DNA of 64,000 nt from Eledone cirrhosa (lineage: Eukaryota), in assembly GCA_964016885.1 (NCBI GenBank), contig OZ024753.1:15252001-15316000 (forward strand). The letters run 5' to 3'. Position 1 is the stretch's first letter, and each line of letters opens with the position of its first letter. The notes beneath the pieces were generated by a model, which searched no databases, was not told the DNA's origin, and was given only the letters and a program-made list of their open reading frames with translations. The translations under genes and the position numbers were made by a program. Positions 1 to 61,517 of this stretch are shown here, piece by piece.

Positions 1-1760
1 CGCATTAATAATCCCTGTTTCTTGTTTAGGAAACTGTTTGATAGCAGACCGCATTAATCGTCCCTGTTTCTTGTTTAGGAAACTGTTTCATAGCAGACTG
101 CATTAATCATCCCTGTTTCTTGTTTAGGAAACTGTTTGATAGCAGACCGCATTAATCGTCCCTGTTTCTTGTTTAGGAAACTGTTTGATCGCAGACCGCA
201 TTAATCGTCCCTGTTTCTTGTTTAGGAAACTGTTTGATAGCAGACTGTATTAATCATCCCTGTTTCTTGTTTAGGAAACTGTTTGATAGCAGACCGCATT
301 AATCGTCCCTGTTTCTTGTTTAGGAAACTGTTTGATAGCAGACCGCATTAATCGTCCCTGTTTCTTGTTTAGGAAACTGTTTCATAGCAGACTGCATTAA
401 TCATCCCTGTTTCTTGTTTAGGAAACTGTTTGATAGCAGACCGCATTAATCGTCCCTGTTTCTTGTTTAGGAAACTGTTTCATAGCAGACTGCATTAATC
501 ATCCCTGTTTCTTGTTTAGGAAACTGTTTGATAGCAGACCGCATTAATCGTCCCTGTTTCTTGTTTAGGAAACTGTTTGATAGCAGACCGCATTAATCGT
601 CCCTGTTTCTTGTTTAGGAAACTGTTTCATAGCAGACTGCATTAATCATCCCTGTTTCTTGTTTAGGAAACTGTTTGATAGCAGACCGCATTAATCGTCC
701 CTGTTTCTTGTTTAGGAAACTGTTTGATAGCAGACCGCATTAATCGTCCCTGTTTCTTGTTTAGGAAACTGTTTGATAGCAGACCGCATTAATCGTCCCT
801 GTTTCTTGTTTAGGAAACTGTTTGATAGCAGACCGCATTAATCGTCCCTGTTTCTTGTTTAGGAAACTGTTTGATAGCAGACCGCATTAATCGTCCCTGT
901 TTCTTGTTTAGGAAACTGTTTGATAGCAGACCGCATTAATCGTCCCTGTTTCTTGTTTAGGAAACTGTTTCATAGCAGACTGCATTAATCATCCCTGTTT
1001 CTTGTTTAGGAAACTGTTTGATAGCAGACCGCATTAATCGTCCCTGTTTCTTGTTTAGGAAACTGTTTGATAGCAGACCGCATTAATCGTCCCTGTTTCT
1101 TGTTTAGGAAACTGTTTGATAGCAGACCGCATTAATCGTCCCTGTTTCTTGTTTAGGAAACTGTTTGATAGCAGACCGCATTAATCGTCCCTGTTTCTTG
1201 TTTAGGAAACTGTTTGATAGCAGACCGCATTAATCGTCCCTGTTTCTTGTTTAGGAAACTGTTTGATAGCAGACCGCATTAATAATCCCTGTTTCTTGTT
1301 TAGGAAACTGTTTGATAGCAGACCGCATTAATCGTCCCTGTTTCTTGTTTAGGAAACTGTTTCATAGCAGACTGCATTAATCATCCCTGTTTCTTGTTTA
1401 GGAAACTGTTTGATAGCAGACCGCATTAATCGTCCCTGTTTCTTGTTTAGGAAACTGTTTGATAGCAGACCGCATTAATCGTCCCTGTTTCTTGTTTAGG
1501 AAACTGTTTGATAGCAGACCGCATTAATCGTCCCTGTTTCTTGTTTAGGAAACTGTTTGATAGTATACAGCATTAATCATCCCTGTTTCTTGTTTAGGAA
1601 ACTGTTTCATAGCAGACCGCATTAATCGTCCCTGTTTCTTGTTTAGGAAACTGTTTGATAGTATACAGCATTAATCATCCCTGTTTCTTGTTTAGGAAAC
1701 TGTTTGATAGTAGACATCATTAATCATCCCTGTTTCTTGTTTAGGAAACTGTTTGATTTA
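1..1760. repeat. 49-bp tandem satellite, about 36 copies, truncated by the window start
   Basis: Unit cgcattaatcgtccctgtttcttgtttaggaaactgtttgatagcagac recurs with period 49 (starts at 1, 50, ...). Last copies are degenerate. Confidence 0.97.
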
Positions 1761-2691: not shown

Positions 2692-2785
2692 CTATAATTT
2701 AGGAGGGTCATGCTGCCAATAAAAACGCATGCACTTGTTAGTTTTCACTTGGTTGGTTTCATAACCGGTTGGTTGTTTATATATT

Positions 2786-2828
2786 GTCAAAGCTCTTTCG
2801 TCACACATTCTGTGACCTCCTCAGTGAC
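2786..2828 (-). ncRNA. Minimal type I hammerhead ribozyme motif
   Basis: Minus strand reads gtca-CTGAGGA-g-GTCACA gaatg TGTGAC-GAAA-gagc-TT-tgac. Stem I gtca/tgac, 6-bp stem II, minimal stem III, CUU triplet. Confidence 0.7.
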
Positions 2829-2913
2829 TAGGTTTTTATTTTGTGTCTCTCCTTTCTTCTATCCTACACCATCTTGTTTTGTAAACAAAGGAGAGGGACA
2901 AAATAAAAACCTA

Positions 2914-2956
2914 GTCACTGAGAAGGTCACAGAATGTGTGACGAAAGAGCTTTGAC
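2914..2956 (+). ncRNA. Hammerhead motif with mutated core (CUGAGAA)
   Basis: gtca-CTGAGAA-g-GTCACAgaatgTGTGAC-GAAA-gagc-TT-tgac. Mirror copy of 2786-2828 with one core substitution. Confidence 0.55.
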
Positions 2957-3210
2957 AATATATAAACAACCGTCTGGTTATCAAATCAAACAACCAGAAA
3001 TCTATAACAAACTGAAGTGAAAAACCAACAGGTGCGTGAGTTTGTGTGTTTTTTTTTGGCAGCATGACCCTCCCAAAGTATAACAATATCTGTTTCAACA
3101 CACGTTTTCAGATAAAAAATCTTGCAAAAATTCAAAAACAATATATATATATATAGAGAGAGAGAGGGAGAGAGGGAGAGGGAGAGGGGAGAGAGAGAGA
3201 GAGAGAAACG

Positions 3211-3254: not shown

Positions 3255-3533
3255 TTTATCAAGTTACAGTGAATACCACAGGGAATACCACTAACGTATG
3301 GAATCTATAAACATGAAAGGTGAGGTAGATACATTATAATTAAAAATATAAATTAAAATGAATTTACCCACCCCTGTAACTATATATCTGACTTCGTTCT
3401 TGTGTGGCATATAGTTACAGAGGTGGGTAAATTCATTTTAATTCATATTTTTAATTATAATGTATCTACCTCACGTTTCGTAGTTTATAGATTCCATACG
3501 TGAGTGGTATTCGCCGTAACTTGATAAACACAC
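3251..3533. repeat. Long imperfect inverted repeat (fold-back element)
   Basis: agtgtttatcaagttac...cccctgtaactatat pairs with atatagttacagagg...gtaacttgataaacac around a loop of about 25 nt. Confidence 0.85.
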
Positions 3534-3653
3534 TCTCTCACTCTAGTGTGTTTTCCTCTCTCTATTACATTTGAAGAGCCCGGGATTCTTTTTCATTTGA
3601 CCTCATTAATTACAGGGACTAATGCGAGTTTCTGACTCCGTTAATTCATTTTG

Positions 3654-3684
<31 letters not shown>

Positions 3685-3686
3685 AA

Positions 3687-3905
3687 TGAAGTAATTCCGT
3701 CGGAAAAGTCCAGGAAAAAAGAGTGCTCTATGTAGGTAACAGAGCTTAATAGTTATGTGATAAACAACATAAGGCAATTATTTCATTTACCAGTGGTTTC
3801 TTAAAAGCAAAAAAAGAGGATTTTTTCATTCTGATGATTGAAAGCAAAATTTTTTTGCTTTTAAGAAACCACTGGTAAATGAAATAATTGCCTTATGTTG
3901 TTTAT

Positions 3906-3910
<5 letters not shown>
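3687..3910. mobile_element. Fold-back hammerhead element (family also at 9457-9710 and 61095-61390)
   Basis: taaacaacataaggcaattatttcatttaccagtggtttcttaaaagcaaaa is inverted at about 3853-3905. The tail gaagtaattccgtcggaaaagtccagg is nearly identical to 61098 onward. Microsatellite flanks. Confidence 0.8.
3824..3884 (+). ncRNA. Type I hammerhead ribozyme
   Basis: tttcatt-CTGATGA(3831-3837)-ttgaaagcaaaa..ttttgcttttaa-GAAA(3865-3868)-CC act GG-TA-aatgaaa. 7-bp stem I, about 12-bp stem II, stem III ACC/GGT, GUA triplet at 3875-3877. Confidence 0.88.
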
Positions 3911-3938
<28 letters not shown>

Positions 3939-3941
<3 letters not shown>

Positions 3942-4133
3942 AACGAGTAGGACCCCGACGGCTGAGCTCAAGCCGTTTCGACGGCTAATTCTGGATCCAG
4001 AATTAGCCGTCGAAACGGCTTGAGCTCAGCCGTCGCGGTCCTACTCGTTCCTATTACCCACTCTACTACCCTAAGTATTGAGTACTTTGGTGCGTTATGG
4101 TCCATCTGGTTCCTTACCATATTTCCTTGGTTA
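3939..4133. mobile_element. Abundant (TA)n-flanked hairpin element carrying the 3' half of a hammerhead (about 15 copies in the window)
   Basis: Palindrome gaccccgacggctgagctcaagccgtttcgacggcta / tagccgtcgaaacggcttgagctcagccgtc plus a conserved tail of about 80-bp (...ccactctactaccctaagtattgagtac...ccttaccac). Confidence 0.8.
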
Positions 4134-8519: not shown

Positions 8520-8778
8520 TTATATTAATAAGAGGAATTCCAACTTTGTCTGATTTACTCGTTTTATTTACAATCCTTTAAAATTTATAATGGTATTATA
8601 ATGAAATAGTATGATAGAATATTAAATGTTAAGTGTTAATTGAACACTGTTAAGTGTCAATTAACACTTAACATTTAATATTCTATCATACTATTTCAAT
8701 ATAATACCATTATAAATTTTAAAGGATTGTAAATAAAACGAGTAAATCAGACAAAGTTGGAATTCCTTTTATTAATAT
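8520..8778. repeat. Near-perfect palindrome with arms of about 120 bp
   Basis: tatattaataagaggaattccaactttgtctg... is mirrored by ...cagacaaagttggaattccttttattaatata. Centre about 8650. Confidence 0.9.
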
Positions 8779-8834
8779 ATATATATATATATATTTGCGT
8801 GTGTGTGTGTGCACATATATATATATATAAATAT

Positions 8835-9058
8835 GTTTATCCCGAGTTGAGTCGGGGTAACCACAGTAAATAAAGTACTCAATACATGTGTAGAGAGTGA
8901 CGACAAAGTTTTACATAGAAAATGCTTCTACAGGACTAGAACTGTTTCATTCGTATGAAGTCATTAGGAATACCAGTTGAAATACTAATGATATACTATT
9001 CCAGCCGGATTTCCTAATGATTTCATACGAATGAAACAGTTCTAGTCCTGTAGAAGTA
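8835..9058. mobile_element. Fold-back element with two core-mutated hammerheads (CUAAUGA)
   Basis: ttc-CTAATGA(9014-9020)-tttcatacgaat-GAAA-CAG ttctagtc CTG-TA-gaag, with a mirror copy at about 8925-8970. Same family as 14462-14832. Confidence 0.7.
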
Positions 9059-9095
9059 AATTCTATATAAACCTATAACCCCCCCTCTCTCTTTG

Positions 9096-9376: not shown

Positions 9377-9459
<83 letters not shown>

Positions 9460-9480
9460 ATAAACACCATAAGATAATTA

Positions 9481-9541
9481 TTTCATTTACCAGTGGTTTC
9501 TTGAAGGCAGATATTTATATGTCTTCAGTCGTCAGAATGAA
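9481..9541 (-). ncRNA. Type I hammerhead ribozyme
   Basis: Minus strand: ttcatt-CTGACGA-ctgaag..cttcaa-GAAA-CC act GG-TA-aatgaa. Confidence 0.8.
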
Positions 9542-9557
9542 TAAATGACCTCATTTA

Positions 9558-9615
9558 TTCATTCTGACGACTGAAGACATAAATATCTGCCTTCAAGAAA
9601 CCACTGGTAAATGAA
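9558..9615 (+). ncRNA. Type I hammerhead ribozyme
   Basis: ttcatt-CTGACGA(9564-9570)-ctgaagacataaatatctgccttcaa-GAAA(9597-9600)-CC act GG-TA-aatgaa. First stem II pair is a C/A mismatch. Confidence 0.8.
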
Positions 9616-9702
9616 ATAATTATCTTACGTTGTTTATTCCATAACTAATAAGCTCTGTAGCCTACACAGAGCACTCTCTTTTCCTGCACATTTCCTACGG
9701 AA

Positions 9703-9749
<47 letters not shown>

Positions 9750-14464: not shown

Positions 14465-14546
14465 CTTATTCCTGGTTCAATCGGGGGTAACCACAGTAAG
14501 TAAGGTACTCAATACATAGCAGAGTATAAATGTTTTAATATAGAAA

Positions 14547-14597
14547 AGCTTCTACAGGACTAGAACTGTTTCATTCGAGAAAAATCATCAGGAAGCT
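14547..14597 (-). ncRNA. Type I hammerhead ribozyme
   Basis: Minus strand: agcttc-CTGATGA-tttttctcgaat-GAAA-CAG ttctagtc CTG-TA-gaagct. Stem II is weak. Confidence 0.72.
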
Positions 14598-14645
14598 CCC
14601 TGATGATTTCTCACGAATGAAACAGTTCTAGTCCTGTAGGAGCTT
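14593..14645 (+). ncRNA. Type I hammerhead ribozyme
   Basis: aagctcc-CTGATGA(14600-14606)-tttctcacgaat-GAAA-CAG ttctagtc CTG-TA(14637-14638)-ggagctt. Perfect 7-bp stem I, GUA triplet. Confidence 0.8.
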
Positions 14646-14828
14646 ATCCTTTCGTTACTTTGGTATTGTGTGTTAGATTTTGCCTGCCACAATGTTCAAT
14701 TTGTCAAGCTATTTAAACGTATGTTATTACACTAAAGATCTACCCTGGTCGAGTGCTTTGCTAACTCATTCATATCGTAGGTCGAATTTGCTTGCACACC
14801 ACCAAAGATTCGATTTTACTAAGCCTCC

Positions 14829-15320: not shown

Positions 15321-15974
15321 CGGCGATGAATTAGTTTTGCGAGGTTTTTTATATGAAATCGTGTGTCGAAACAGATATTGTTATATTTGGGGAGGGTCAT
15401 ATTTGCGTAATATTGCCAGAATTAATAACAGAACACACTCACTGTTTGGTTGGTTTTCGCTTCTCGCTGTCTTTTATATATATATATCTGCGATCTAACT
15501 TACTCGGTCCTCAATGTTGCCATTGACTGACCGGCGGTCAAAAATAATACAGATACAATATAGACAAACACATATATATATAGTTTACATAATTTACATA
15601 AATCTTTCGTTGCACATCTGCAACATCGTCAGTGGTGTTATATTCATTGTTCCTCCTGTTGTGTTGTATGTCTACGCCATTTTTTTTGGCGTAGACATAC
15701 AACACAACAGGAGGAACAATGAATATAACACCACTGACGATGTTGCAGATGTGCAACGAAAGATTTATGTAAACTATATATATATGTGTTTGTCTATATT
15801 GTATCTGTATTATTTTTGACCGCCGGTCAGTCAATGGCAACATTGAGGACCGAGTAAGTTAGATCGCAGATATATATATATAAAAGACAGCGAGAAGCGA
15901 AAACCAACCAAACAGTGAGTGTGTTCTGTTATTAATTCTGGCAATATTACGCAAATATGACCCTCCCCAAATAT

Positions 15975-15980
<6 letters not shown>
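15320..15980. mobile_element. Large near-perfect palindrome (arms about 300 bp) with degenerate hammerhead cores on both arms
   Basis: Arms about 15376-15678 and 15687-15980. CTGACGA(15734-15740)-t-GTTGCA gatg TGCAAC-GAAA is present but stem I is weak. The end atgaccctccccaaatataacaata is shared with the 2693 and 20483 elements. Confidence 0.85.
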
Positions 15981-16015
<35 letters not shown>

Positions 16016-16507: not shown

Positions 16508-17009
16508 TGTTCTGCTTATATTAATATTATAGTTCTGGTATGTCAAATTGATACCATAGAACAACCTTAAATCATAGACAACCTATGTATTTCCAGGGGT
16601 ACTTAGTACCCACGGGCTTACTAACTTCTTCTATCACCCTCCATTTGTTGAGAACAACCACGTTGATTCTATTTAGCTGCTATTTTTAGTAACAAGATAG
16701 ACAACACGTCTATGTTTTTCCCGCTTTAACCTCGGGTAGTTCACGTACAGGTCATTTTTCGGCCTTTTGGATCTGTGCTAGCTGGCAGATAACAATATAT
16801 TTTATCGTTCCTGGGTCTTTAGCCCTAGGAAAGGAAAATGCTTCTCTGATGAGCCTTGATTTTCCATTAGAAATCCATTGGGTCTCTGGTGTTTTACAAG
16901 GCGAAACCGATCGGTAAGAGCCATATGAATAGGTAAATATTTAAATTATATTTTTTAATTTATTTTAAAAAATTGGTTGAATTTTGCTTGTTCTGCTTAT
17001 ATTAATATA
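16508..17009 (+). mobile_element. Penelope-like pLTR-type fragment with a 20-bp direct terminal repeat and a hammerhead
   Basis: tgttctgcttatattaatat occurs at both ends (about 16508 and 16990), (TA)n flanks, internal hammerhead. Confidence 0.65.
16842..16920 (+). ncRNA. Type I hammerhead ribozyme
   Basis: ttct-CTGATGA(16846-16852)-GCCTTG...CAAGGC-GAAA(16903-16906)-CCGATCGG-TA-agag. Canonical G-C closing pair of stem II, palindromic stem III ACCGATCGGT, GUA triplet. Confidence 0.88.
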
Positions 17010-19170: not shown

Positions 19171-19467
19171 TGAGTTAAAGACTTCGTTGATATATAATCA
19201 GCTGAGTTATGTTTATAACAGATACGAAGCACTCGACAGATTATACTTAACTGGAGTATTATGATAATAATAGTAATAAACGAAAGATATAACTTTATAA
19301 CATCACTATTTATTTCATTATATATATTTCGGGGATGCAAACATTTTGTCTGAAGAAGGCATGCTCTGATTTATGTTAAACATAAATGTTTGCATCCCCG
19401 AAATATATATAATGAAATAAATAGTGATGTTATAAAGTTATATCTTTCGTTTATCACTAATATTATA
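19171..19467. mobile_element. Fold-back element with a possible degenerate hammerhead
   Basis: Arms about 19265-19346 and 19385-19465 are inverted. CTGAAGA at 19350-19356 and GAAA-tatata-TA at 19400 are present, but stem I is not evident. Confidence 0.65.
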
Positions 19468-20114
19468 TATACACATATATACCTGTTTGTCTGTATATAT
19501 GAACATAATAAAAACACGACAATTGGACATACAAAAATCTCCTAAATCCTAAATCTAGAGTAAGGGTGCCGTTGAATCTGAGCTTTAAATCAACCCCGAC
19601 GGAGCAGTTTTATAAAGAAAGTATTCCACCTGTAATTAGAGAATCGTTTAAGAGGTATCGTTGTATACATGAAATAATGTATCGTTCTAAATCTTAAGAT
19701 TAGAGTTGGATTTGAGTCCATATTGGTTTCTACTGCCATGTCTAGCATCCACGTAGAGGGTCCCTCGTTAAAGGAACACAAAATCTATTTCTAAAGAATG
19801 AAGTATATTTATTGAGTACTGTGTACGTGACGTAATTAAGAATGCCCCCCCCCCCCCACAAACACATTATTTGAAGCGATAACCTAATACATTCCTTCCA
19901 TATACTGTACCGATTGTGTTGTTATTTCTGTTTACCTTTCATATATATATATATATATACATACATATATATATATATATACATACATATATATATATAT
20001 ATACATACATATATATATATATACATACATATATATATATATATATACATACATATATATATATATATATACATACATATATATATATATATATACATAC
20101 ATATATATATATAT

Positions 20115-21678: not shown

Positions 21679-24600
21679 TTTCTTCTCTGAAGAACCTCTG
21701 CTGTCCAACTCTCCTCAGAGTTTCTTCTCTGAAGACTGTCTGCTGTCCAGCTCTCCTCAGAGTTTCTTCTCTGAAAACCGTCTGCTGTCCAACTCTCCTC
21801 AGAGTTTCTTCTCTGAAAACGTCTGCTGTCCAACTCTCCTCAGAGTTTCTTCTCTGAAGACCGTCTGCTCTACAACTCTCCTCAGAGTTTCTTCTCTGAA
21901 GACCGTCTGCTCTACAACTCTCCTCAGAGTTTCTTCTCTGAAAACCGTCTGCTGTCCAACTCTCCTGAAAGTTTCTTCTCTGAAGACCGTCTGCTGTCCA
22001 ACTCTCTTCAGAGTTTCTTCTCTGAAGACCGTCTGCTGTCCAACTCTCCTCAGAGTTTCTTCTCTGAAGACCGTCTGCTCTACAACTCTCCTCAGAGTTT
22101 CTTCTCTGAAAACCGTCTGCTGTCCAACTCTCCTCAGAGTTTCTTCTCTGAAAACCGTCTGCTGTCCAACTCTCCTCAGAGTTTCTTCTCTGAAGACCGT
22201 CTGCTGTCCAACTCTCCTCAGAGTTTCTTCTCTGAAGACCGTCTGCTCTACAACTCTCCTCAGAGTTTCTTCTCTGAAAACCGTCTGGTGTCCAACTCTC
22301 CTGAAAGTTTCTTCTCTGAAGACCGTCTGCTGTCCAACTCTCTTCAGAGTTTCTTCTCTGAAGACCGTCTGCTGTCCAACTCTCCTCAGAGTTTCTTCTC
22401 TGAAGACCATCTGCTGTCCAACTCTCCTCAGAGTTTCTTCTCTGAAAACCGTCTGCTGTCCAACTCTCCTCAGAGTTTCTTCTCTGAAAACCGTCTGCTC
22501 TCCAACTCTCCTGAGAGTTTCTTCTCTGAAGACCGTCTGCTGTCCAACTCTCCTCAGAGTTTCTTCTCTGGAGACCGTCTGCTGTCCAACTCTCCTGAGA
22601 GTTTCTTCTCTAAGACCGTCTGCTGTCCAACTCTCTTGAGAGTTTCTTCTCTGAAGACCCTCTGCTGTCCAACTCTCCTCAGAGTTTCTTCTCTGAATAC
22701 CGTCTGCTGTCCAACTCTCCTCAGAGTTTCTTCTCTGAATACCGTCTGCTGTCCAACTCTCCTCAGAGTTTCTTCTCTGAAGACCGTCTGCTCTCCAACA
22801 CTCCTGGGAGTTTCTTCTCTGAAGACCGTCTGCTGTCCAACTCTCCTCAGAGTTTCTTCTCTGAAGACCGTCTGCTGTCCAACTCTCCTGAGAGTTTCTT
22901 CTCTGAATACCGTCTGCTGTCCAACTCTCCTCAGAGTTTCTTCTCTGAAGACCGTCTGCTGTCCAACTCTCATCAGATTTTCTTCTCTGAAAACCGTCTG
23001 CTCTCCAACTCTCCTGAGAGTTTCTTCTCTGAAGACCGTCTGCTGTCCAACTCTCCTCAGAGTTTCTTCTCTGAATACCGTCTGCTGTCCAACTCTCCTC
23101 AGAGTTTCTTCTCTGAAAACCGTCTGCTCTCCAACTCTCCCGAGAGCTTCTTCTCTGAATACCGTCTGCTGTCCAACTCTCCTCAGAGTTTCTTCTCTGA
23201 AGACCGTCTGTTGTCCAACTCTCCTCAGAGTTTCTTCTCTGAATACCGTCTGCTGTCCAACTCTCCTCAGAGTTTCTTCTCTGAAGACCGTCTGCTGTCC
23301 AACTCTCCTCAGAGTTTCATCTCTGAAAACCGTCTGCTGTCCAACTCTCCTGAGAGTTTCTTCTCTGAATACCGTCTGCTGTCCAACTCTCCTCAGAGTT
23401 TCTTCTCTGAATACCGTCTGCTGTCCAACTCTCATCAGATTTTCTTCTCTGAAAACCGTCTGCTCTCCAACTCTCCTGAGAGTTTCTTCTCTGAAGACCG
23501 TCTGCTGTCCAACTCTCCTCAGAGTTTCTTCTCTGAAAACCGTCTGCTCTCCAACTCTCCTGAGAGCTTCTTCTCTGAATACCGTCTGCTGTCCAACTCT
23601 CCTCAGAGTTTCTTCTCTGAAGACCATCTGTTGTCCAACTCTCCTCAGAGTTTCTTCTCTGAATACCGTCTGCTGTCCAACTCTCCTCAGAGTTTCTTCT
23701 CTGAAGACCGTCTGCTGTCCAACTCTCCTCAGAGTTTCATCTCTGAAAACCGTCTGCTGTCCAACTCTCCTCAGAGTTTCTTCTCTGAAGACCTTCTGCT
23801 GTCCAACTCTCCTCAGAGGTTCTTCTCTGAAGACCGTCTGCTGTCCAACTCTCCTCAGAGTTTCTTCTCTGAAAACCGTCTGCTGTCCCACTCTCCTGAG
23901 AGTTTCTTCTCTGAAGACCTTCTGCTGTCCAACTCTCCTCAGAGTTTCTTCTCTGAAGACCGTCTGCTGTCCAACTCTCCTGAGAGTTTCTTCTCTGAAG
24001 ACCGTCTGCTGTCCAACTCACCTCAGAGTTTCTTCTCCGAAGACCGTCTGCTGTCCAACTCTCCTCAGAGTTTCTTCTCTGAAAACCGTCTGCTGTCCAA
24101 CTCTCCTCAGAGTTTCTTCTCTGAATAGCGTCTGCTGTCCAACTCTCCTGAGAGTTTCTTCTCTGAAGACCGTCTGCTGTCCAACTCTCCTCAGAGTTTC
24201 ATCTCTGAAAACCGTCTGCTGTCCAACTCTCCTGAGAGTTTCTTCTCTGAAAACCGTCTGCTGTCCAACTCTCCTGAGAGTTTCTTCTCTGAAGACCTTC
24301 TGCTGTCCAACTCTCTTCAGAGTTTCTTCTCTGAAAACCGTCTGCTGTCCAACTCTCCTCAAAGTTTCTTCTCTGAAGACCGTCTGTTGTCCAACTCTCC
24401 TCAGAGTTTCTTCTCTGAATACCGTCTGCTGTCCAACTCTCCTCAGAGTTTCTTCTCTGAAGATCGTCTGCTGTCCAACTCTCCTCAGAGTTTCATCTCT
24501 GAAAACCGTCTGCTGTCCAACTCTCCTCAGAGTTTCTTCTCTGAAGACCTTCTGCTGTCCAACTCTCCTCAGAGGTTCTTCTCTGAAGACCGTCTGCTGT

Positions 24601-27140
24601 CCAACTCTCCTCAGAGTTTCTTCTCTGAAAACCGTCTGCTGTCCCACTCTCCTGAGAGTTTCTTCTCTGAAGACCGTCTGCTCTACAACTCTCCTCAGAG
24701 TTTCTTCTCTGAAAACCGTCTGGTGTCCAACTCTCCTGAAAGTTTCTTCTCTGAAGACCGTCTGCTGTCCAACTCTCTTCAGAGTTTCTTCTCTGAAGAC
24801 CGTCTGCTGTCCAACTCTCCTCAGAGTTTCTTCTCTGAAGACCATCTGCTGTCCAACTCTCCTCAGAGTTTCTTCTCTGAAAACCGTCTGCTGTCCAACT
24901 CTCCTCAGAGTTTCTTCTCTGAAAACCGTCTGCTCTCCAACTCTCCTGAGAGTTTCTTCTCTGAAGACCGTCTGCTGTCCAACTCTCCTCAGAGTTTCTT
25001 CTCTGAATACCGTCTGCTGTCCAACTCTCCTCAGAGTTTCATCTCTGAAAACCGTCTGCTGTCCAACTCTCCTGAGAGTTTCTTCTCTGAATACCGTCTG
25101 CTGTCCAACTCTCCTCAGAGTTTCTTCTCTGAATACCGTCTGCTGTCCAACTCTCATCAGATTTTCTTCTCTGAAAACCGTCTGCTCTCCAACTCTCCTG
25201 AGAGTTTCTTCTCTGAAGACCGTCTGCTGTCCAACTCTCCTCAGAGTTTCTTCTCTGAAAACCGTCTGCTCTCCAACTCTCCTGAGAGCTTCTTCTCTGA
25301 ATACCGTCTGCTGTCCAACTCTCCTCAGAGTTTCTTCTCTGAAGACCGTCTGTTGTCCAACTCTCCTCAGAGTTTCTTCTCTGAATACCGTCTGCTGTCC
25401 AACTCTCCTCAGAGTTTCTTCTCTGAAGACCGTCTGCTGTCCAACTCTCCTCAGAGTTTCATCTCTGAAAACCGTCTGCTGTCCAACTCTCCTGAGAGTT
25501 TCTTCTCTGAAAACCGTCTGCTGTCCAACTCTCCTGAGAGTTTCTTCTCTGAAGACCTTCTGCTGTCCAACTCTCTTCAGAGTTTCTTCTCTGAAAACCG
25601 TCTGCTGTCCAACTCTCCTCAGAGTTTCATCTCTGAAAACCGTCTGCTGTCCAACTCTCCTGAGAGTTTCTTCTCTGAATACCGTCTGCTGTCCAACTCT
25701 CCTCAGAGTTTCTTCTCTGAATACCGTCTGCTGTCCAACTCTCATCAGATTTTCTTCTCTGAAAACCGTCTGCTCTCCAACTCTCCTGAGAGTTTCTTCT
25801 CTGAAGACCGTCTGCTGTCCAACTCTCCTCAGAGTTTCTTCTCTGAAAACCGTCTGCTCTCCAACTCTCCTGAGAGCTTCTTCTCTGAATACCGTCTGCT
25901 GTCCAACTCTCCTCAGAGTTTCTTCTCTGAAGACCGTCTGTTGTCCAACTCTCCTCAGAGTTTCTTCTCTGAATACCGTCTGCTGTCCAACTCTCCTCAG
26001 AGTTTCTTCTCTGAAGACCGTCTGCTGTCCAACTCTCCTCAGAGTTTCATCTCTGAAAACCGTCTGCTGTCCAACTCTCCTCAGAGTTTCTTCTCTGAAG
26101 ACCTTCTGCTGTCCAACTCTCCTCAGAGGTTCTTCTCTGAAGACCGTCTGCTGTCCAACTCTCCTCAGAGTTTCTTCTCTGAAAACCGTCTGCTGTCCCA
26201 CTCTCCTGAGAGTTTCTTCTCTGAAGACCTTCTGCTGTCCAACTCTCCTCAGAGTTTCTTCTCTGAAGACCGTCTGCTGTCCAACTCTCCTGAGAGTTTC
26301 TTCTCTGAAGACCGTCTGCTGTCCAACTCTCCTCAGAGTTTCTTCTCCGAAGACCGTCTGCTGTCCAACTCTCCTCAGAGTTTCTTCTCTGAAAACCGTC
26401 TGCTGTCCAACTCTCCTCAGAGTTTCTTCTCTGAATACCGTCTGCTGTCCAACTCTCCTGAGAGTTTCTTCTCTGAAGACCGTCTGCTGTCCAACTCTCC
26501 TCAGAGTTTCATCTCTGAAAACCGTCTGCTGTCCAACTCTCCTGAGAGTTTCTTCTCTGAAGACCTTCTGCTGTCCAACTCTCTTCAGAGTTTCTTCTCT
26601 GAAAACCGTCTGCTGTCCAACTCTCCTCAAAGTTTCTTCTCTGAAGACCGTCTGATGTCCATCTCTCCTCAGAGTTTCTTCTCTGAAAACCGTCTGCTGT
26701 CCAACTCTCCTCAGAGTTTCTTCTCTGAAGACCGTCTGCTGTCCAACTCTCCTCAGAGTTTCTTCTCTGAAAACCGTCTGCTGTCCAACTCTCCTGAGAG
26801 TTTCTTCTCTGAAGACCGTCTGCTGTCCAACTCTCTTCAGAGTTTCTTCTCTGAAAACCGTCTGCTGTCCAACTCTCCTCAGAGTTTCTTCTCTGAAGAC
26901 CGTCTGTTGTCCAACTCTCCTGAGAGTTTCTTCTCTGAAGACCTTCTGCTGTCCAACTCTCCTCAGAGTTTCTTCTCTGAAGACCGTCTGTTGTCCAACT
27001 CTCCTCAGAGTTTCTTCTCTGAAGACCGTCTGCTGTCCAACTCTCCTCAGAGTTTCTTCTCTGAAAACCGTCTGCTGTCCAACTCTCCTCAGAGTTTCTT
27101 CTCTGACGACCGTCTGCTGTCCAGACTCCTGAGAGTTTTT
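21679..27140. repeat. 42-bp tandem satellite, about 130 copies
   Basis: Unit agagtttcttctctgaagaccgtctgctgtccaactctcctc. The 14-codon period explains the long repetitive ORFs in several frames. Confidence 0.97.
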
Positions 27141-30352: not shown

Positions 30353-30461
30353 TATATATAAGCCTAAGAAAATTAACACGGAAGGACAAGACAACGAAAG
30401 GAAACAATTTAAGGGGAAACCTTTAAACAATTATTTTTGAAAATATATATACAAATGTAAG

Positions 30462-32657
30462 GTCGTATAACTATGTATTGGAATATACTAACGTGGTATA
30501 ACTATGTATTGGAATATACTAACGTGGTATAACTATGTGTTGGAATATACTAACGTGGTATAACTATGTATTGGAATATACTAACGTGGTATAACTATGT
30601 ATTGGAATATACTAACGTGGTATAACTATGTATTGGAATATACTAACGTCGTATAACTATGTATTGGAACATACTAACGTGGTATAACTATGTATTGGAA
30701 CATACTAACGTGGTATAACTAAGTGTTGGAACATACTAACGTGGTATAACTATGTGTTGGAATATACTAACGTGGTATGACTATGTGTTGGAACATACTA
30801 ACGTGGTATAACTATGTGTTGGAATATACTAACGTCGTATAACTATGTATTGCAACATACTAACGTGGTATAACTATGTGTTGGAATATACTAACGTGGT
30901 ATAACTATGTGTTGGAATATACTAACGTGGTATGACTATGTATTGGAATATACTAACGTGGTATAACTAAGTGTTGGAATATACTAACGTGGTATAACTA
31001 TGTATTGGAATATACTAACGTGGTATAACTAAGTGTTGGAATATACTAACGTGGTATAACTATGTATTGGAACATACTAACGTGGTATAACTAAGTGTTG
31101 GAATATACTAACGTGGTATAACTAAGTGTTGGAATATACTAACGTGGTATAACTAAGTGTTGGAATATACTAACGTGGTATAACTATGTATTGGAATATA
31201 CTAACGTGGTATAACTATGTGTTGGAATATACAAACGTGGTATAACTAAGTGTTGGAATATACTAACGTGGTATAACTATGTGTTGGAATATACTAACGT
31301 GGTATAACTATGTGTTGGAATATACTAACGTGGTATAACTATGTGTTGGAATATACTAACGTGGTATAACTATGTGTTGGAATATACTAACGTGGTATAA
31401 CTAAGTGTTGGAATATACTAACGTGGTATAACTAAGTGTTGGAATATACTAACGTGGTATAACTATGTGTTGGAATATACTAACGTGGTATAACTATGTG
31501 TTGGAACATACTAACGTGGTATAACTAAGTGTTGGAATATACTAACGTGGTATAACTAAGTGTTGGAATATACTAACGTGGTATAACTAAGTGTTGGAAT
31601 ATACTAACGTGGTATAACTAAGTGTTGGAATATACTAACGTGGTATAACTAAGTGTTGGAATATACTAACGTGGTATAACTATGTGTTGGAACATACTAA
31701 CGTGGTATAACTATGTATTGGAACATACTAACGTGGTATAACTATGTGTTGGAACATACTAACGTGGTATAACTATGTATTGGAACATACTAACGTGGTA
31801 TAACTAAGTGTTGGAATATACTAACGTGGTATAACTATGTATTGGAATATACTAACGTGGTATAACTATGTGTTGGAATATACTAACGTGGTATAACTAA
31901 GTGTTGGAATATACTAACGTGGTATAACTAAGTGTTGGAATATACTAACGTGGTATAACTAAGTGTTGGAATATACTAACGTGGTATAACTAAGTGTTGG
32001 AATATACTAACGTGGTATAACTAAGTGTTGGAATATACTAACGTGGTATAACTATGTGTTGGAACATACTAACGTGGTATAACTATGTATTGGAACATAC
32101 TAACGTGGTATAACTATGTGTTGGAACATACTAACGTGGTATAACTATGTATTGGAACATACTAACGTGGTATAACTAAGTGTTGGAATATACTAACGTG
32201 GTATAACTATGTATTGGAATATACTAACGTGGTATAACTATGTGTTGGAACATACTAACGTGGTATAACTATGTATTGGAACATACTAACGTGGTATAAC
32301 TATGTATTGGAATATACTAACGTGGTATAACTATGTATTGGAACATACTAACGTGGTATAACTATGTATTGGAACATACTAACGTGGTATAACTAAGTGT
32401 TGGAATATACTAACGTGGTATAACTATGTATTGGAATATACTAACGTGGTATAACTATGTGTTGGAATATACTAACGTGGTATAACTAAGTGTTGGAATA
32501 TACTAACGTGGTATAACTATGTGTTGGAATATACTAACGTGGTATAACTAAGTGTTGGAATATACTAACGTGGTATAACTAAGTGTTGGAATATACTAAC
32601 GTGGTATAACTAAGTGTTGGAATATACTAACGTGGTATAACTAAGTGTTGGAATATA
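30462..32657. repeat. 31-bp tandem satellite, about 70 copies
   Basis: Unit tactaacgtggtataactatgtattggaata with three main variable positions. Confidence 0.97.
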
Positions 32658-32699
32658 CGTGCTAACGATTCTATCACTCCATCATCGCCATTATATTCA

Positions 32700-41604: not shown

Positions 41605-44600
41605 ACAACAGTTAACTGAACACACTAACCACTAAGTCACCAGACTCTGATCACTCACAACTGTTAACTGAACACCCTAACCACTAAGTCACCAGACTCT
41701 GATCACTCACAACTGTTAACTGAACACCCTAACCACTAAGTCACCTGACTGTGATCACTCACAACAGTTAACTGAACACCCTAACCACTAAGTCACCAGA
41801 CTCTGATCACTCACAACTGTTAACTGACCACCCTAACCACTAAGTCACCAGACTCTGATCACTCACAAAAGTTAACTGAACACCCTAACCACTAAGTCAT
41901 CAGACTCTGATCACTCACAACCGTTAAGTAAACACCCTAACCCCTAAGTCACCAGACTCTGATCACTCACAACAGTTAACTGAACACCCTAACCACTAAC
42001 TCACCAGACTGTGATCACTCACAACTGTTAACTGAACACCCTAACCACTAAGTCACCAGACTGTGATCACTCACAACAGTTAACTGAACACCCCAACCAC
42101 TAAGTCACCAGACGCTGATCACTCACAGCTGTTAACTGAACACCCTAACCACTAAGTCACGAGATTCTGATCACTCACAACTGTTAACTGAACACCCTAA
42201 CCACTAAGTCACCAGATTCTGATCACTCACAACTGTTAACTGAACACTCTAACCACTAAGTCACCAGATTCTGATCACTCACAACTGTTAACTGAACACC
42301 CTAACCACTAAGTCACCAGATTCTGATCACTCACAACTGTTAACTGAACACCCTAACCACTAAGTCACCAGATTCTGATCACTCACAACTGTTAACTGAA
42401 CACCCTAACCACTAAGTCACCAGATTCTGATCACTCACAACTGTTAACTGAACACCCTAACCACTAAGTCACCAGACTCTGATCACTCACAACTGTTAAC
42501 TGAACACCCTAACCACTAAGTCACCAGATTGTGATCACTCACAACAGTTAACTGAACACCCTAACCACTAAGTCACAAGATTCTGATCACTCACAACTGT
42601 TAACTGAACACCCTAACCACTAAGTCACCAGACTCTGATCACTCACAACAGTTAACTGAACACCCTAACCACTAAGTCACCAGATTCTGATCACTCACAA
42701 CTGTTAACTGAACACCCTAACCACTAAGTCACCTGACTCTGATAACTCACAGCTGTTAACTGAACATCCTAACCACTAAGTCACCTGACTGTGATCACTC
42801 ACAAGAGTTAACTGAACACCCTAACCACTAAGTCACCAGACTCTGATCACTCACAACTGTTAACTGAACACCCTAACCACTAAGTCACCAGACTGTGATC
42901 ACTCACAACAGTTAACTGAACACCCTAACCACTAAGTCACAAGATTCTGATCACTTACAACTGTTAACTGAACACCCTAACCACTAAGTCACCAGACTGT
43001 GATCACTCACAACTGTTAACTGAACACACTAACCACAAAGTCACCTGACTTTGATCACTCACAACTGTTAACTGAACGCCCTAACCACTAAGTCACCTGA
43101 CTCTGATAACTCACAGCTGTTAACTGAACATCCTAACCACTAAGTCACCTGACTGTGATCACTCACATGAGTTAACTGAACACCCTAACCACTAAGTCAC
43201 CTGACTGTGATACCTCAAAACTGTTAACTGAACACCCTAACCACTAAGTCACCTGACTGTGATCAGTCACAACAGTTAACTGAACACCCTAACCACTAAG
43301 TCACCAGACAGTGATCACTCACAATTGTTAACTGAACAACCTAACCACTAAGTCACCTGACTGTGATCACTCACAACAGTTAACTGAACACCCTAACCAC
43401 TAAGTCACCAGACTCTGATCACTCACAACTGTTAACTGAACACCCTAACCACTAAGTAACCAGACTCTGATCACTCACAACTGTTAACTGAACACCCTAA
43501 CCACTAAGTCACAAGACTCTGATCACTCACAACTGTTAACTGAACACCCTAACCACTAAGTCACCAGACTCTGATCACTCACAACTGTTAACTGAACACA
43601 CTAACCACTAAGTCACCTGACTGTGATCACTCACAACTGTTAACTGAACACCCTAACCACTAAGTCACCAGACTCTGATCACTCACAACTGTTAACTGAA
43701 CACACTAACCACTAAGTCACCTGACTCTGATCACTCACAACTGTTAACTGAACACCCTAACCACTAAGTCACCAGACTCTGATCACTCACAACTGTTAAC
43801 TGAACACCCTAACCACTAAGTCACCTGACTGTGATCACTCAGAGCTGATAACCGAACACCCTAACCACTAAGTCACCAGACTCTGATCACTCACAACCGT
43901 TAAGTGAACACCCTAACCCCTAATTCACCAGACTCTGATCACTCACAACTGTTAACTGAACACCCTAACCACTAAGTCACCAGACTCTGATCACTCACAA
44001 CTGTTAACTGAACCCCCTATCCCCTAAGTCACCAGACTCTGATCACTCAGAGCTGTTAACTGAACACCCTAACCACTAAGTGACCAGACTCTGATCACTC
44101 ACAACAGTTAACTGAACACCCTAACCACTAAGTCACCAAACTCTGATCACTCACAACTGTTAACTGAACACCCTAACCACTAAGTTACCAGACTCTGATC
44201 ACTCAGAGCTGATAACCGAACACCCTAACCACTAAGTCACCAGACTCTGATCACTCACAACCGTTAAGTGAACACCCTAACCCCTAATTCACCAGACTCT
44301 GATCACTCACAACTGTTAATTGAACACCCTAACCACTAAGTCACCAGACTCTGATCACTCACAACTGTTAAGTGAACACTCTAACCACTAAGTCACCTGA
44401 CTCTGATCACTCACAACTGTTAACTGAACAACCTAACCACTAAGTCACCAAACTTTGATCACTCACAACTGTTAACTGAACACCCTAATCACTAAGTCAC
44501 CTGACTGTGATCACTCACAAGAGTTAACTGAACACCCTAACCACTAAGTAACCAGACTGTGATCACTCACAACAGTTAACTGAACACCCTAACCACTAAG

Positions 44601-47600
44601 TCACCAGATTCTGATCACTCACAACTGTTAACTGAACACCCTAACCATTAAGTCACCAGACTCTGATCACTCACAACTGTTAACTGAACACCCTAACCAC
44701 TAAGTCACCAGACTCTGATCACTCACAACTGTTAACTGAACACCCTAACCACTAAGTCACCAGACTCTGATCACTCAGAGCTGTTAACTGAAACCCTAAC
44801 CACTAAGTTACCAGACTCTGATCACTCAGAGCTGATAACCGAACACCCTAACCACTAAGTCACCAGACTCTGATCACTCACAACCGTTAAGTGAACACCC
44901 TAACCCCTAATTCACCAGACTCTGATCACTCACAACTGTTAACTGAACACCCTAACCACTAAGTCACCAGACTCTGATCACTCACAACTGTTAAGTGAAC
45001 ACTCTAACCACTAAGTCACCTGACTCTGATCACTCACAACTGTTAACTGAACAACCTAACCACTAAGTCACCTGACTGTGATCACTCACAACAGTTAACT
45101 GAACACCCTAATCACTAAGTCACCTTACTGTGATCACTTACAAGAGTTAACTGAACACCCTAACCACTAAGTAACCAGACTGTGATCACTCACAACAGTT
45201 AACTGAACACCCTAACCACTAAGTCACCAGACTCTGATCACTCACAACAGTTAACTGAACACCCTAACCACTAAGTCACCAGACTCTGATCACTCACAAC
45301 TGTTAACTGAACACCCTAACCACTAAGTAACCAGACTCTGATCACTCACAACTGTTAACTGAACACCCTAACCACTAAGTCACAAGACTCTGATCACTCA
45401 CAACTGTTAACTGAACACCCTAACCACTAAGTCACCAGACTCTGATCACTCACAACTGTTAAGTGAACACTCTAACCACTAAGTCACCTGACTCTGATCA
45501 CTCACAACTGTTAACTGAACAACCTAACCACTAAGTCACCTGACTGTGATCACTCACAACAGTTAACTGAACACCCTAATCACTAAGTCACCTTACTGTG
45601 ATCACTCACAAGAGTTAACTGAACACCCTAACCACTAAGTAACCAGACTGTGATCACTCACAACAGTTAACTGAACACCCTAACCACTAAGTCACCAGAC
45701 TCTGATCACTCACAACAGTTAACTGAACACCCTAACCACTAAGTCACCAGACTCTGATCACTCACAACTGTTAACTGAACACCCTAACCACTAAGTAACC
45801 AGACTCTGATCACTCACAACTGTTAACTGAACACCCTAACCACTAAGTCACAAGACTCTGATCACTCACAACTGTTAACTGAACACCCTAACCACTAAGT
45901 CACCAGACTCTGATCACTCACAACTGTTAACTGAACACACTAACCACTAAGTCACCTGACTGTGATCACTCACAACTGTTAACTGAACACCCTAACCACT
46001 AAGTCACCAGACTCTGATCACTCACAACTGTTAACTGAACACACTAACCACTAAGTCACCTGACTCTGATCACTCACAACTGTTAACTGAACACCCTAAC
46101 CCCTAATTCACCAGACTCTGATCACTCACAACTGTTAACTGAACACCCTAACCACTAAGTCACCAGACTCTGATCACTCACAACTGTTAACTGAACCCCC
46201 TATCCCCTAAGTCACCAGACTCTGATCACTCAGAGCTGTTAACTGAACACCCTAACCACTAAGTGACCAGACTCTGATCACTCACAACAGTTAACTGAAC
46301 ACCCTAACCACTAAGTCACCAAACTCTGATCACTCACAACTGTTAACTGAACACCCTAACCACTAAGTTACCAGACACTGATCACTCAGAGCTGATAACC
46401 GAACACCCTAACCACTAAGTCACCAGACTCTGATCACTCACAACCGTTAAGTGAACACCCTAACCCCTAATTCACCAGACTCTGATCACTCACAACTGTT
46501 AATTGAACACCCTAACCACTAAGTCACCAGACTCTGATCACTCACAACTGTTAAGTGAACAACCTAACCACTAAGTCACCAAACTTTGATCACTCACAAC
46601 TGTTAACTGAACACCCTAATCACTAAGTCACCTGACTGTGATCACTCACAAGAGTTAACTGAACACCCTAACCACTAAGTAACCAGACTGTGATCACTCA
46701 CAACAGTTAACTGAACACCCTAACCACTAAGTCACCAGATTCTGATCACTCACAACTGTTAACTGAACACCCTAACCATTAAGTCACCAGACTCTGATCA
46801 CTCACAACTGTTAACTGAACACCCTAACCACTAAGTCACCAGACTCTGATCACTCACAACTGTTAACTGAACACCCTAACCACTAAGTCACCAGACTCTG
46901 ATCACTCAGAGCTGTTAACTGAAACCCTAACCACTAAGTTACCAGACTCTGATCACTCAGAGCTGATAACCGAACACCCTAACCACTAAGTCACCAGACT
47001 CTGATCACTCACAACCGTTAAGTGAACACCCTAACCCCTAATTCACCAGACTCTGATCACTCACAACTGTTAACTGAACACCCTAACCACTAAGTCACCA
47101 GACTCTGATCACTCACAACTGTTAAGTGAACACTCTAACCACTAAGTCACCTGACTCTGATCACTCACAACTGTTAACTGAACAACCTAACCACTAAGTC
47201 ACCTGACTGTGATCACTCACAGCAGTTAACTGAACACCCTAATCACTAAGTCACCTTACTGTGATCACTCACAAGAGTTAACTGAACACCCTAACCACTA
47301 AGTAACCAGACTGTGATCACTCACAACAGTTAACTGAACACCCTAACCACTAAGTCACCAGACTCTGATCACTCACAACTGTTAACTGAACACACTAACC
47401 ACTAAGTCACCTGACTGTGATCACTCACAACTGTTAACTGAACACCCTAACCACTAAGTCACCAGACTCTGATCACTCACAACTGTTAACTGAACACCCT
47501 AACCATTAAGTCACCAGACTCTGATCACTCACAAATGTTAACTGAACACCCTAACCACTAAGTCACCAGACTCTGATCACTCACAACTGTTAACTGAACA

Positions 47601-56610: not shown

Positions 56611-56783
56611 ATATATATATATATATATATATAAATATATACAGTGAGAGAGAGATGGAGAGACAGAGAGAGAAAATGTTTTTGTTTTCTGAAATATTTA
56701 ATCGTAGAGGTGAGTTGTTTCAAGATTGAGATGGTCATAAAACAGTTAAATGATTTGATTTAAACCCTTTTTATAATATTTAT

Positions 56784-60962: not shown

Positions 60963-61031
60963 CTATATATATATATATATATATATAATTTGTGTATATT
61001 TATATATATATATATATACACATACACACAC

Positions 61032-61097
<66 letters not shown>

Positions 61098-61190
61098 GAA
61101 GTAATTTCGTCGGAAAAGTCCAGGAAAAAAGAGTGCTCTATGTAGGTAACAGAGCTTAATAGTTATGTAATAAACAACATAAGGCAATTA

Positions 61191-61250
61191 TTCCATTTAC
61201 CAGTGGTTTCTTAAAAGCAAAAGATTTTGCTTTCAATCCTCAGAATGAAA
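61191..61250 (-). ncRNA. Type I hammerhead ribozyme (left arm of fold-back element 61095-61390)
   Basis: Minus strand: tttcatt-CTGAGGA-ttgaaagcaaaatcttttgcttttaa-GAAA-CC act GG-TA-aatggaa. Confidence 0.85.
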
Positions 61251-61303
61251 AAAAAGTGCATTTTTGTTTTTAAAATCCAAATTCAATAAACAGACCAGGA
61301 TTT

Positions 61304-61363
61304 TTTCATTCTGAGGATTGAAAGCAAAATCTTTTGCTTATAAGAAACCACTGGTAAATGGAA
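61304..61363 (+). ncRNA. Type I hammerhead ribozyme (right arm)
   Basis: tttcatt-CTGAGGA(61311-61317)-ttgaaagcaaaatcttttgcttataa-GAAA(61344-61347)-CC act GG-TA-aatggaa. Confidence 0.85.
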
Positions 61364-61444
61364 TAATTGCCTTATGTTGTTTATTACATAAATATATATA
61401 TATATATAATATATAAGATCAAAAGATGGTTAAAAGAGTTCCAT

Positions 61445-61517
61445 GTATTTTATTATGCGCATTTCAAAAACAAATATCATCATGCAATAACATTTGTGTT
61501 TTCATCAGATAAAGTAT
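61445..61517 (-). ncRNA. Type I hammerhead ribozyme (left arm of fold-back element 61408-61711)
   Basis: Mirror of 61514-61586, with stem I tttat/ataaa. Confidence 0.8.

What the first reader, a model, noticed from the sequence alone, without database searches (positions are those of the whole stretch)
3687..3910. One hammerhead family at three loci keeps core and stems I/III while stem II is replaced
Copies at 3824, 9481/9558 and 61191/61304 all keep ttcatt-CTGANGA...GAAACCACTGGTA-aatg. Position N varies (T, C, G), which is the tolerated position 7 of the hammerhead core. Stem II differs in sequence (ttgaaagcaaaa/ttttgcttttaa versus tgaag/cttca) yet still pairs. This pattern suggests selection on RNA structure in the source elements.
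Basis: partly seen in the sequence, partly recalled or inferred. Interest (0 to 1): 0.75.

Follow-up and report, generated by a model that had tools for sequence, protein, structure and literature searches.

The report
Hammerhead ends of Hydra-clade Penelope retrotransposon
These are clipped, mirror-image end pieces of an abundant jumping gene of an already known kind, whose predicted self-cutting RNA keeps its fold while its stems change between lineages, and whose youngest lineage carries a second copy with the cut site predicted to be disabled.

Summary
The window has three insertions, each a head-to-head pair of arms in (TA)n, holding five complete type I hammerheads. One 17-mer occurs 9,716 times in the 3.0 Gb genome. 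The parent is a 4.1-4.7 kb Penelope-like retroelement with an intact 710-aa RT plus C-terminal GIY-YIG ORF bearing the Hydra-clade motifs; a relative, Hydra-1_Obim, is published.

Across five lineages, 12 of 18 stem pairs show double-sided changes, in stem I as well as stem II. The core is fixed except N7 and one U4C branch. Single copies decay in the core about as fast as in flanks, so selection acted on source elements. Stem II is remodelled on a shared base, not replaced.

In 41 of 46 head-to-head pairs one arm ends short and one long, about 65-70 nt apart, as two-site priming predicts. This scan noted that pattern before in other families of this genome.

Not found in my searches: the young lineage carries a second, internal hammerhead in its 3' UTR with core intact but GUG at the cut site (50 of 52 arms). 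Cleavage is untested; no RNA data. Known kind, modest interest.

The parts
3685..3911 (.). Insertion 1: head-to-head pair of 5'-truncated 3' ends of the Penelope-like element (lineage A, N7 = T), flanked by (TA)n/(CA)n
3685..3815 (-). Long arm: cut off inside stem II (no CTGANGA); GAAA-stem III-UA at 3800-3788; runs to the long end, about 103 nt past the predicted cut site
3685..3753 (-). Tail of about 69 nt present on the long arm only; equals the 5' leader of the next unit in tandem copies; contains the conserved GCTCT..AGAGC hairpin
3817..3911 (+). Short arm with a complete hammerhead; ends about 34 nt past the predicted cut site in (TA)n
3824..3884 (+). Type I hammerhead: stem I 3824-3830/3878-3884, CTGATGA 3831-3837, stem II 3838-3864, GAAA 3865-3868, stem III CC-ACT-GG 3869-3875, U16.1 3876, A17 3877; predicted cut 3877/3878
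9457..9709 (.). Insertion 2 (lineage B, N7 = C): short arm on - (core 9535-9529), long arm on + (core 9564-9570, GAAA 9597); stem II partly decayed in both arms
61095..61392 (.). Insertion 3 (lineage A, N7 = G): long arm on - (core 61243-61237), short arm on + (core 61311-61317, GAAA 61344; a private T>A breaks one stem II pair)

Best explanation
The motif is a type I hammerhead in the terminal repeat of an abundant Hydra-clade Penelope-like retroelement, predicted to self-cleave after GUA, and the window copies are 5'-truncated, likely inert insertion remnants whose lineage differences record selection on the fold in the source elements. Shown: unit of 4.1-4.7 kb = hammerhead, 226-nt leader, 710-aa RT + GIY-YIG ORF, microsatellite-rich 3' UTR, hammerhead; insertions lie in (TA)n; arms end at two fixed sites about +36 and +99 to +112 past the cut site; stems I and II covary between lineages. 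Inferred: the element's protein nicks both strands of a (TA)n target and primes cDNA at the two sites of an RNA that still spans the cut site (uncleaved tandem transcript or re-ligated circle); the two truncated cDNAs join head to head, giving one short and one long arm. Inferred: the ribozyme cuts slowly, probably helped by pairing of the near-palindromic stem III of two copies, and trims tandem transcripts to unit length. Inferred: a copy captured in the 3' UTR of the young lineage was tolerated because its cut site became GUG, since a cut there would separate the ORF from the priming sites.
For: Copy number: 9,716 matches of the 17-mer, 0 for the reversed control; 12,054 of a tail 15-mer. 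Parent: hammerheads flank intact 713-718 codon frames in tandem and inverted arrays. The protein has RWK, DKT, a CxCX5C linker (CSCRKPDEC), CxxC and CxH near the C-terminus, as listed for Hydra (PMC8557442 section 11), and by eye aligns from its first residue with Hydra-1_Obim. 16 intact ORFs differ by a median 1.0% (chosen as best protein matches, so biased to young copies). Covariation. Neutral decay of copies: in 54 full hammerheads found by the tail alone (of 92 tail hits), core plus position 17 differ from the lineage consensus at 10 of 639 sites against 75 of 2,527 in the 3' flank (P = 0.054), while N7 differs at 16 of 53. Ends: 41 of 46 head-to-head pairs are short + long; loose TA ends at the same two places in contigs of public runs (possibly the source sample). 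Two-site, both-strand priming on unprocessed RNA is shown in vitro for another Penelope-like element (PMC11167929 passages). Internal copy: GUG in 50 of 52 arms, already in the earliest variant; 50 of 52 continue into the same 3' UTR; present in all 16 intact-ORF copies; GUG is not a hammerhead cut site (PMC4191386 passages).
Against: No cleavage data. 5' breakpoints do not pile up at the cut site: 3 of 48 placed breakpoints lie within 1 nt of it, and 1 of 18 ORF-bearing copies starts within 2 nt. Every arm examined that reaches the cut site spans it, so cleaved linear RNA is not the template. In the anole element hammerhead mutants did not affect insertion in vitro and no RNA reads ended at the cut site. 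Stem III loops of lineages C, D, E (UUU, UCU) are not self-complementary, which weakens a strict dimer requirement. The pair next to the core is not the usual G10.1-C11.1; the conserved G-C lies two positions out. One branch of lineage E has U4C. Pfam found no RT or GIY-YIG family in the protein, and no tree was built. One insertion (L062, 2 of 52 arms) has an internal-type copy with GUA. The shuffle controls ignore relatedness; only about five lineages are independent.
Confidence: 0.85

Rival explanations
1. The fold is selected as a protein-binding or priming signal for the element's RT, and cleavage is weak or irrelevant.
For: No fossil ends at the cut site; the template spans the site; hammerhead mutants did not change insertion in vitro in the anole element; low in vitro activity of metazoan Penelope hammerheads; no G10.1-C11.1 pair.
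Against: The invariant positions are the catalytic ones (CUGA-GA, GAAA, U16.1, A17) while N7 is free. The internal copy changed the scissile base early. The priming sites lie 36-110 nt downstream of the motif.
Confidence: 0.2
2. The internal GUG copy is a cleavage-dead helper: it pairs its stem III with the terminal copy in a double hammerhead and lends its intact core to cut the terminal site within one transcript.
For: Core intact in 97 of the first 100 listed internal copies; zero core changes between internal and terminal consensuses while roughly 15 of 95 other positions changed (read by eye); mixed stem III duplex -7.0 against -8.2 kcal/mol for the terminal pair, and cofolding gives the strand-swapped form; present in all 16 intact-ORF copies.
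Against: Zero core changes has a chance of about 0.15 at that divergence (my estimate). An A6U core change in the internal copy occurs in four insertions on four contigs, two with intact ORFs. Its stem II has lost a pair and the open-core fold costs about 6 kcal/mol (-3.5 against -9.3). Older lineages spread without it (L034, L036).
Confidence: 0.12
3. The short copies are a non-autonomous retrozyme or MITE-like family rather than truncated ends of a coding element.
For: Short palindromic copies far outnumber ORF-bearing ones, and no ORF remnant was found in the window.
Against: 5' breakpoints are scattered; many arms continue into the same 3' UTR and ORF; no tandem non-coding monomers in the loci read; lineages A and E read through into the same ORF.
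Confidence: 0.04
4. Covariation is an artefact of relatedness, or of fold-back copying during insertion.
For: Few independent lineages; the 'further pair types' measure does not exceed shuffles (21 against 21.5); AT-rich sequence pairs easily.
Against: Double-sided changes at 12 of 18 pairs in two separate stems; slid controls fall to 33-48%; the variants are shared by many dispersed insertions.
Confidence: 0.03

Closest known systems
Hydra clade of C-terminal EN+ Penelope-like elements, esp. Hydra-1_Obim of Octopus bimaculoides (Craig et al. 2021, PMC8557442; abstract, sections 5 and 11, passages, supplement parts and search hits read)
   Same: RWK, DKT, CxCX5C linker, CxxC and CxH motifs, (TA)n targets; hammerhead with an extra base on each side at the base of stem II and stem III acca-N-tggt; the protein aligns by eye from residue 1.
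   Different: Different stems I and II from the Obim motif; unit 4.1-4.7 kb rather than under 3 kb because of a microsatellite-rich 3' UTR; thousands of copies with pLTRs and young intact ORFs (Obim listed without pLTR); tail about 65-70 nt rather than 30-40; second internal GUG hammerhead.
Minimal hammerheads of metazoan Penelope-like elements (Cervera and de la Pena 2014, PMC4209133; parts 1-2 of 4 read)
   Same: Type I motif in pLTRs, long stem II, extra base after A9, short stem III, consensus families with compensatory changes, opposite-strand pairs 100-700 bp apart, dimer model.
   Different: No G10.1-C11.1 pair adjacent to the core; stem III loop not palindromic in three of five lineages; a U4C branch.
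Poseidon element of Anolis carolinensis, PAc (Frangieh et al. 2024, PMC11167929; passages read)
   Same: Two RT start sites downstream of the hammerhead define the tail; both strands are cut and extended; unprocessed RNA is the template.
   Different: Other clade; there the ORF starts inside the hammerhead, here 226 nt after the cut site; here the two sites lie at TA-rich points that resemble the target, and are further apart.
Metazoan non-LTR retrozymes (preprint 10.64898/2026.07.22.740005, part 1 of 5 read; PMC7229834, search listing only)
   Same: Type I hammerhead related to Penelope pLTRs.
   Different: Retrozymes are non-coding tandem monomers; these copies are dispersed truncations of a coding element.

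Membership tests
Type I hammerhead ribozyme | Core CUGANGA, GAAA and NUH cut site in type I order | tested here: met
   triplet GUA
Type I hammerhead ribozyme | Three stems around the core, supported by covariation | tested here: met
   stem III never varies, so it has no covariation support
Type I hammerhead ribozyme | Match to an Rfam hammerhead model | tested here: not met
   no hit at gathering score in the window; none among 41 weak hits for 3650-3950
Type I hammerhead ribozyme | Site-specific self-cleavage | not testable with these tools
   needs a cleavage assay or RNA ends
Type I hammerhead ribozyme | Tertiary contact between stems or loops I and II | not tested
   loop II differs in length and sequence between lineages
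Penelope-type minimal hammerhead (Cervera 2014) | Extra base after A9 and long stem II | tested here: met
   position 1 pairs in only 4 of 12 sublineages, positions 2-8 in 10-12 of 12
Penelope-type minimal hammerhead (Cervera 2014) | G10.1-C11.1 pair | tested here: inconclusive
   a G-C/G-U pair is kept in 12 of 12 sublineages but one pair further out
Penelope-type minimal hammerhead (Cervera 2014) | Palindromic stem/loop III for dimer formation | tested here: inconclusive
   lineages A, B: ACC-ACU-GGU self-duplex -8.2 kcal/mol; C, D, E have UUU or UCU loops
EN+ Penelope-like element | Single ORF with RT and GIY-YIG-type endonuclease | tested here: met
   710 aa, YRDDG and VVY...YVG motifs read; 1,328 relatives of similar length; Pfam scan itself found neither domain
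EN+ Penelope-like element | Partial tandems (pLTR), 5' inversions, tail at one end | tested here: met
   tail about 65-70 nt, longer than the 30-40 reported
Hydra clade | RWK, DKT, CxCX5C linker, CxxC and CxH around E and N; C-terminal EN | tested here: met
   against the list
Hydra clade | (TA)n insertion preference and canonical hammerhead | tested here: met
   a TA or CA run starts at the end of 91 of 107 short and 113 of 115 long arms
Hydra clade | Generally short (under 3 kb); a typical trait rather than a diagnostic one | tested here: not met
   hammerhead-to-hammerhead 4.1-4.7 kb in young copies
Hydra clade | Placement in the RT tree | not tested
   reference sequences were seen only in the paper's supplement and compared by eye
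Naiad clade | N-terminal GIY-YIG domain | tested here: not met
   the endonuclease motifs are C-terminal
Non-LTR retrozyme | Non-coding tandem monomers each with a hammerhead | tested here: not met
   dispersed truncated arms continuous with an ORF

The most novel reading that the evidence does not exclude
The youngest, still-intact lineage has built a two-part ribozyme into one transcript: a cleavage-dead GUG hammerhead in the 3' UTR that keeps its catalytic core and acts as the partner strand of a double hammerhead to cut the terminal site. A weaker form (about 0.5 likely) is that the captured copy simply had to be silenced, which would be genomic evidence that Penelope hammerheads do cut in the animal.
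Probability: 0.12. Interest if true: 0.72.

Novelty: new member of a known kind. Interest (0 to 1): 0.36.

Why it matters
Hammerheads in Penelope-like elements, their covarying families and their inverted pairs are published, so the finding as posed is ordinary. Its value is as a test set. Whether these ribozymes cut in vivo and what for is still open (PMC4209133, PMC8557442, PMC11167929 all say so). This family offers five structurally covarying lineages, natural core variants (U4C), a natural GUG-disabled internal copy beside a GUA terminal copy in the same young element, intact ORFs about 1% apart, and a clear genomic footprint of two-site priming in a clade where I found no such report.

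Tried and rejected
Rfam: no hammerhead hit; the weak miRNA hits only reflect the long inverted repeat. Naiad as parent: my first guess, rejected on domain order. Pfam and PDB sequence searches gave nothing useful.

Off-switch idea (the 3' strand of stem I pairing with the long end of the leader): predicted by folding in lineage A and partly E, but RNAalifold did not recover it, only 81% of cells pair and 1 of 11 pairs has a double change; not supported.

Fossil ends at the cut site: no pile-up. Expression: no RNA holder listed; the runs laid were contigs of unrecorded kind and cannot show RNA ends. The ORF and 3' UTR were not covered by any read-laying.

Papers: no report of an internal or GUG hammerhead in a Penelope element (0 hits; 4 listings, none on this by title or abstract start); octopus or cephalopod plus hammerhead returned only Craig 2021 and a twister paper; the O. 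vulgaris repeat paper has no 'hammerhead' or 'Hydra' in its main text (PMC13282606; supplements not read). The library lacks most subscription journals, and Repbase/Dfam were not available, so this family may already be catalogued. The scan's own index had no look-alike of this sequence and no note on an internal GUG copy.

Rows dropped: 43 of 287 motif instances lacked a parsable 5' core and 4 unclassified ones were left out of the lineage consensuses; 38 of 92 tail hits were truncated or unaligned and left out of the decay count. Two notebook statements were wrong and are corrected here: L087 does carry the internal copy (with a further G>T in stem III), and 27, not 26, of the 30 GUG loci are of the internal type.

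Full report
Observation. The 17-mer spanning GAAA, stem III and the cut site has 6 matches in the window against 0.02 expected. They form three head-to-head pairs flanked by (TA)n, so there are three insertions, with five complete hammerheads and one arm cut inside stem II. At 3824-3884 the MFE fold is the three-way junction with the core open. It is a type I hammerhead with a GUA triplet. Rfam does not detect it.

A large repeat family. The 17-mer occurs 9,716 times in the 3.0 Gb genome, with 0 for the reversed control. A 15-mer from the downstream tail occurs 12,054 times. The host is probably an octopod (inference from the closest described element; not determined). Longer copies continue upstream through a microsatellite-rich 3' UTR into an ORF. 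A protein search found many intact frames. In 20 fetched stretches the unit is hammerhead, 226-nt leader, 710-aa ORF, 3' UTR, hammerhead, 4.1-4.7 kb, in tandem and inverted arrays. Sixteen intact ORFs differ by a median 1.0% and at most 3.9%, so one lineage is young; this sample was picked by protein similarity.

Clade. The protein has RT motifs followed by a C-terminal endonuclease region. It carries RWK, DKT, CSCRKPDEC (CxCX5C), CxxC and CxH, the features Craig et al. list for the Hydra clade, which also targets (TA)n and has canonical hammerheads (PMC8557442 section 11). Their supplement lists Hydra-1_Obim from Octopus bimaculoides, with stem III acca-a-tggt and the same extra bases at the foot of stem II, and its protein aligns with ours by eye from the first residue. 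Pfam gave no domain hit and I built no tree, so clade membership rests on motifs and by-eye comparison.

Is structure selected? Searching by the tail, which does not condition on the ribozyme, revealed five lineages, A-E, with different stems. On a MAFFT alignment of 26 natural copies chosen to span them, RNAalifold predicts the junction unaided. With the hammerhead structure imposed, 92% of cells pair (shuffles 80%, slides 33-48%) and 12 of 18 pairs have double-sided changes, 5 in stem I and 7 in stem II. The number of extra pair types does not exceed shuffles, and shuffles ignore relatedness. Counting lineages rather than copies, 52 of 55 cells pair (shuffles 40 +/- 2.5, slides 20-31). Core, cut-site and stem III positions are invariant at 15 of 16, the 3' flank at 22 of 55 (P = 1.3e-4). 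The exception is U4C in one branch of E. In single copies, by contrast, the core decays at 10 of 639 sites against 75 of 2,527 in the flank (P = 0.054). All this matches what Cervera and de la Pena reported for Penelope hammerheads in general.

How the insertions are made. Arms end at two sites: about +36 (+40 in the young lineage) and +99 to +112 past the cut site. Of 46 head-to-head pairs, 41 have one short and one long arm, 3 two short and 2 two long; classification was automatic and the set includes one likely segmental duplicate and one locus counted twice. In tandem copies the long end runs on into the leader of the next ORF. Contigs from public runs show loose TA ends at the same two places (they may be the source sample). 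Frangieh et al. showed for an anole element that both target strands are cut and extended from two internal RNA sites, on unprocessed RNA. That model predicts this arrangement; applying it here is inference. The spacing of about 65-70 nt is longer than the 30-40 nt tail usually given. Earlier notes of this scan describe two fixed ends in other families of this genome (their loci not checked). Because the ends lie beyond the cut site, the template was uncleaved or circular. 5' breakpoints do not cluster at the cut site, so the DNA holds no direct trace of cleavage.

A second, disabled hammerhead. The young lineage has another copy in its 3' UTR, 0.3-0.55 kb after the stop codon and 1.3-1.9 kb before the terminal one. 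It ends like a short arm followed by TA, so it looks like a self-insertion into a TA run of the 3' UTR (inference). The GUG pattern has 782 matches; 27 of the first 30 loci are of this internal type. Of 52 internal arms, 50 read GUG, including the least changed variant, and 50 continue into the same UTR. GUG is not cleaved by hammerheads. The 5' core is intact in 97 of the first 100 listed. All 16 intact-ORF copies carry it; two older broken copies do not. The simplest reading is that a cut here would sever the ORF from the priming sites, so only a disabled copy could be carried; that would imply the ribozyme cuts in vivo, but one lucky mutation in one source cannot be excluded. The bolder reading is a dead helper in a double hammerhead: the mixed stem III duplex is nearly as stable as the normal one. 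Against it, core retention is not significant at this divergence, an A6U form has spread to four insertions, its stem II is weakened, and one insertion has GUA. I found no report of such a copy.

Verdict. It is a new member of a known kind: a Hydra-clade Penelope-like element with a type I hammerhead. Shown: motif, parent, covariation, end pattern, internal GUG copy. Inferred: cleavage, dimer use, two-site priming, the reason for the GUG. Interest 0.36.

Noticed in passing
window 61401-61630: A second hammerhead family as a near-perfect palindrome in (TA)n: CTGATGA at 61523 (+) and 61508 (-), long stem II, palindromic stem III (ATGCGCAT), AUA triplet.
   Followed up: no
window 3937-4130 and 60770-60966; relatives at 17105, 35979, 36667, 51660, 59851: Another family of head-to-head arms with one short and one long end sharing a tail; arms at 3937 and 60839 carry the 3' half of a hammerhead (GAAAC, long palindromic stem III, GTC). 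One is inserted in the TA run right beside insertion 1.
   Followed up: no
window 16838-16925: Isolated canonical-looking hammerhead with G-C closing stem II and palindromic stem III CCGATCGG.
   Followed up: no
window 2749-2993, 3283-3512, 8521-8779, 8907-9074, 14543-14648, 15375-15982, 19256-19472, 56267-56614, 63435-63653: Further long inverted repeats in TA or GA runs, several with CTGANGA-like words; likely other Penelope-type insertions.
   Followed up: no
L175, L189, L202, L205, L210, L225, L242, L243, L250: One branch of lineage E has the core variant U4C (CCGACGA) in many dispersed copies, so a source element with this change transposed.
   Followed up: partly
leader, e.g. window 3730-3750 (-): A GCTCT..AGAGC hairpin in the tail is nearly invariant across all five lineages while its loop varies; candidate protein-binding site between the two priming sites. 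Part of it was the search anchor, so its conservation is partly built in.
   Followed up: partly
L199, L201, L220, L221, L037: Several inversion junctions fall within the near-palindromic stem III, suggesting the two cDNAs can join by pairing there.
   Followed up: partly
L062:771 (-) and 2794 (+): One insertion whose internal-type hammerhead reads GUA, with changed loop III and a broken first pair of stem I; reversion or separate branch.
   Followed up: no
L010:2473-3015, L181:269-1050, L203:933-1499: ORF remnants about 42-50% identical to the 710-aa protein: more distant Hydra-like families in this genome.
   Followed up: no
window 1-1757, 21679-27138, 30458-32658, 41605-48687, 53423-54732: Long minisatellite arrays with units of 49, 42, 31, 52 and 24 bp.
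   Followed up: no
run X5 laid on L082:1850-2500: A run of a second coded organism holds low-depth contigs with lineage A and B hammerheads; a related species or carry-over, not resolved.
   Followed up: no
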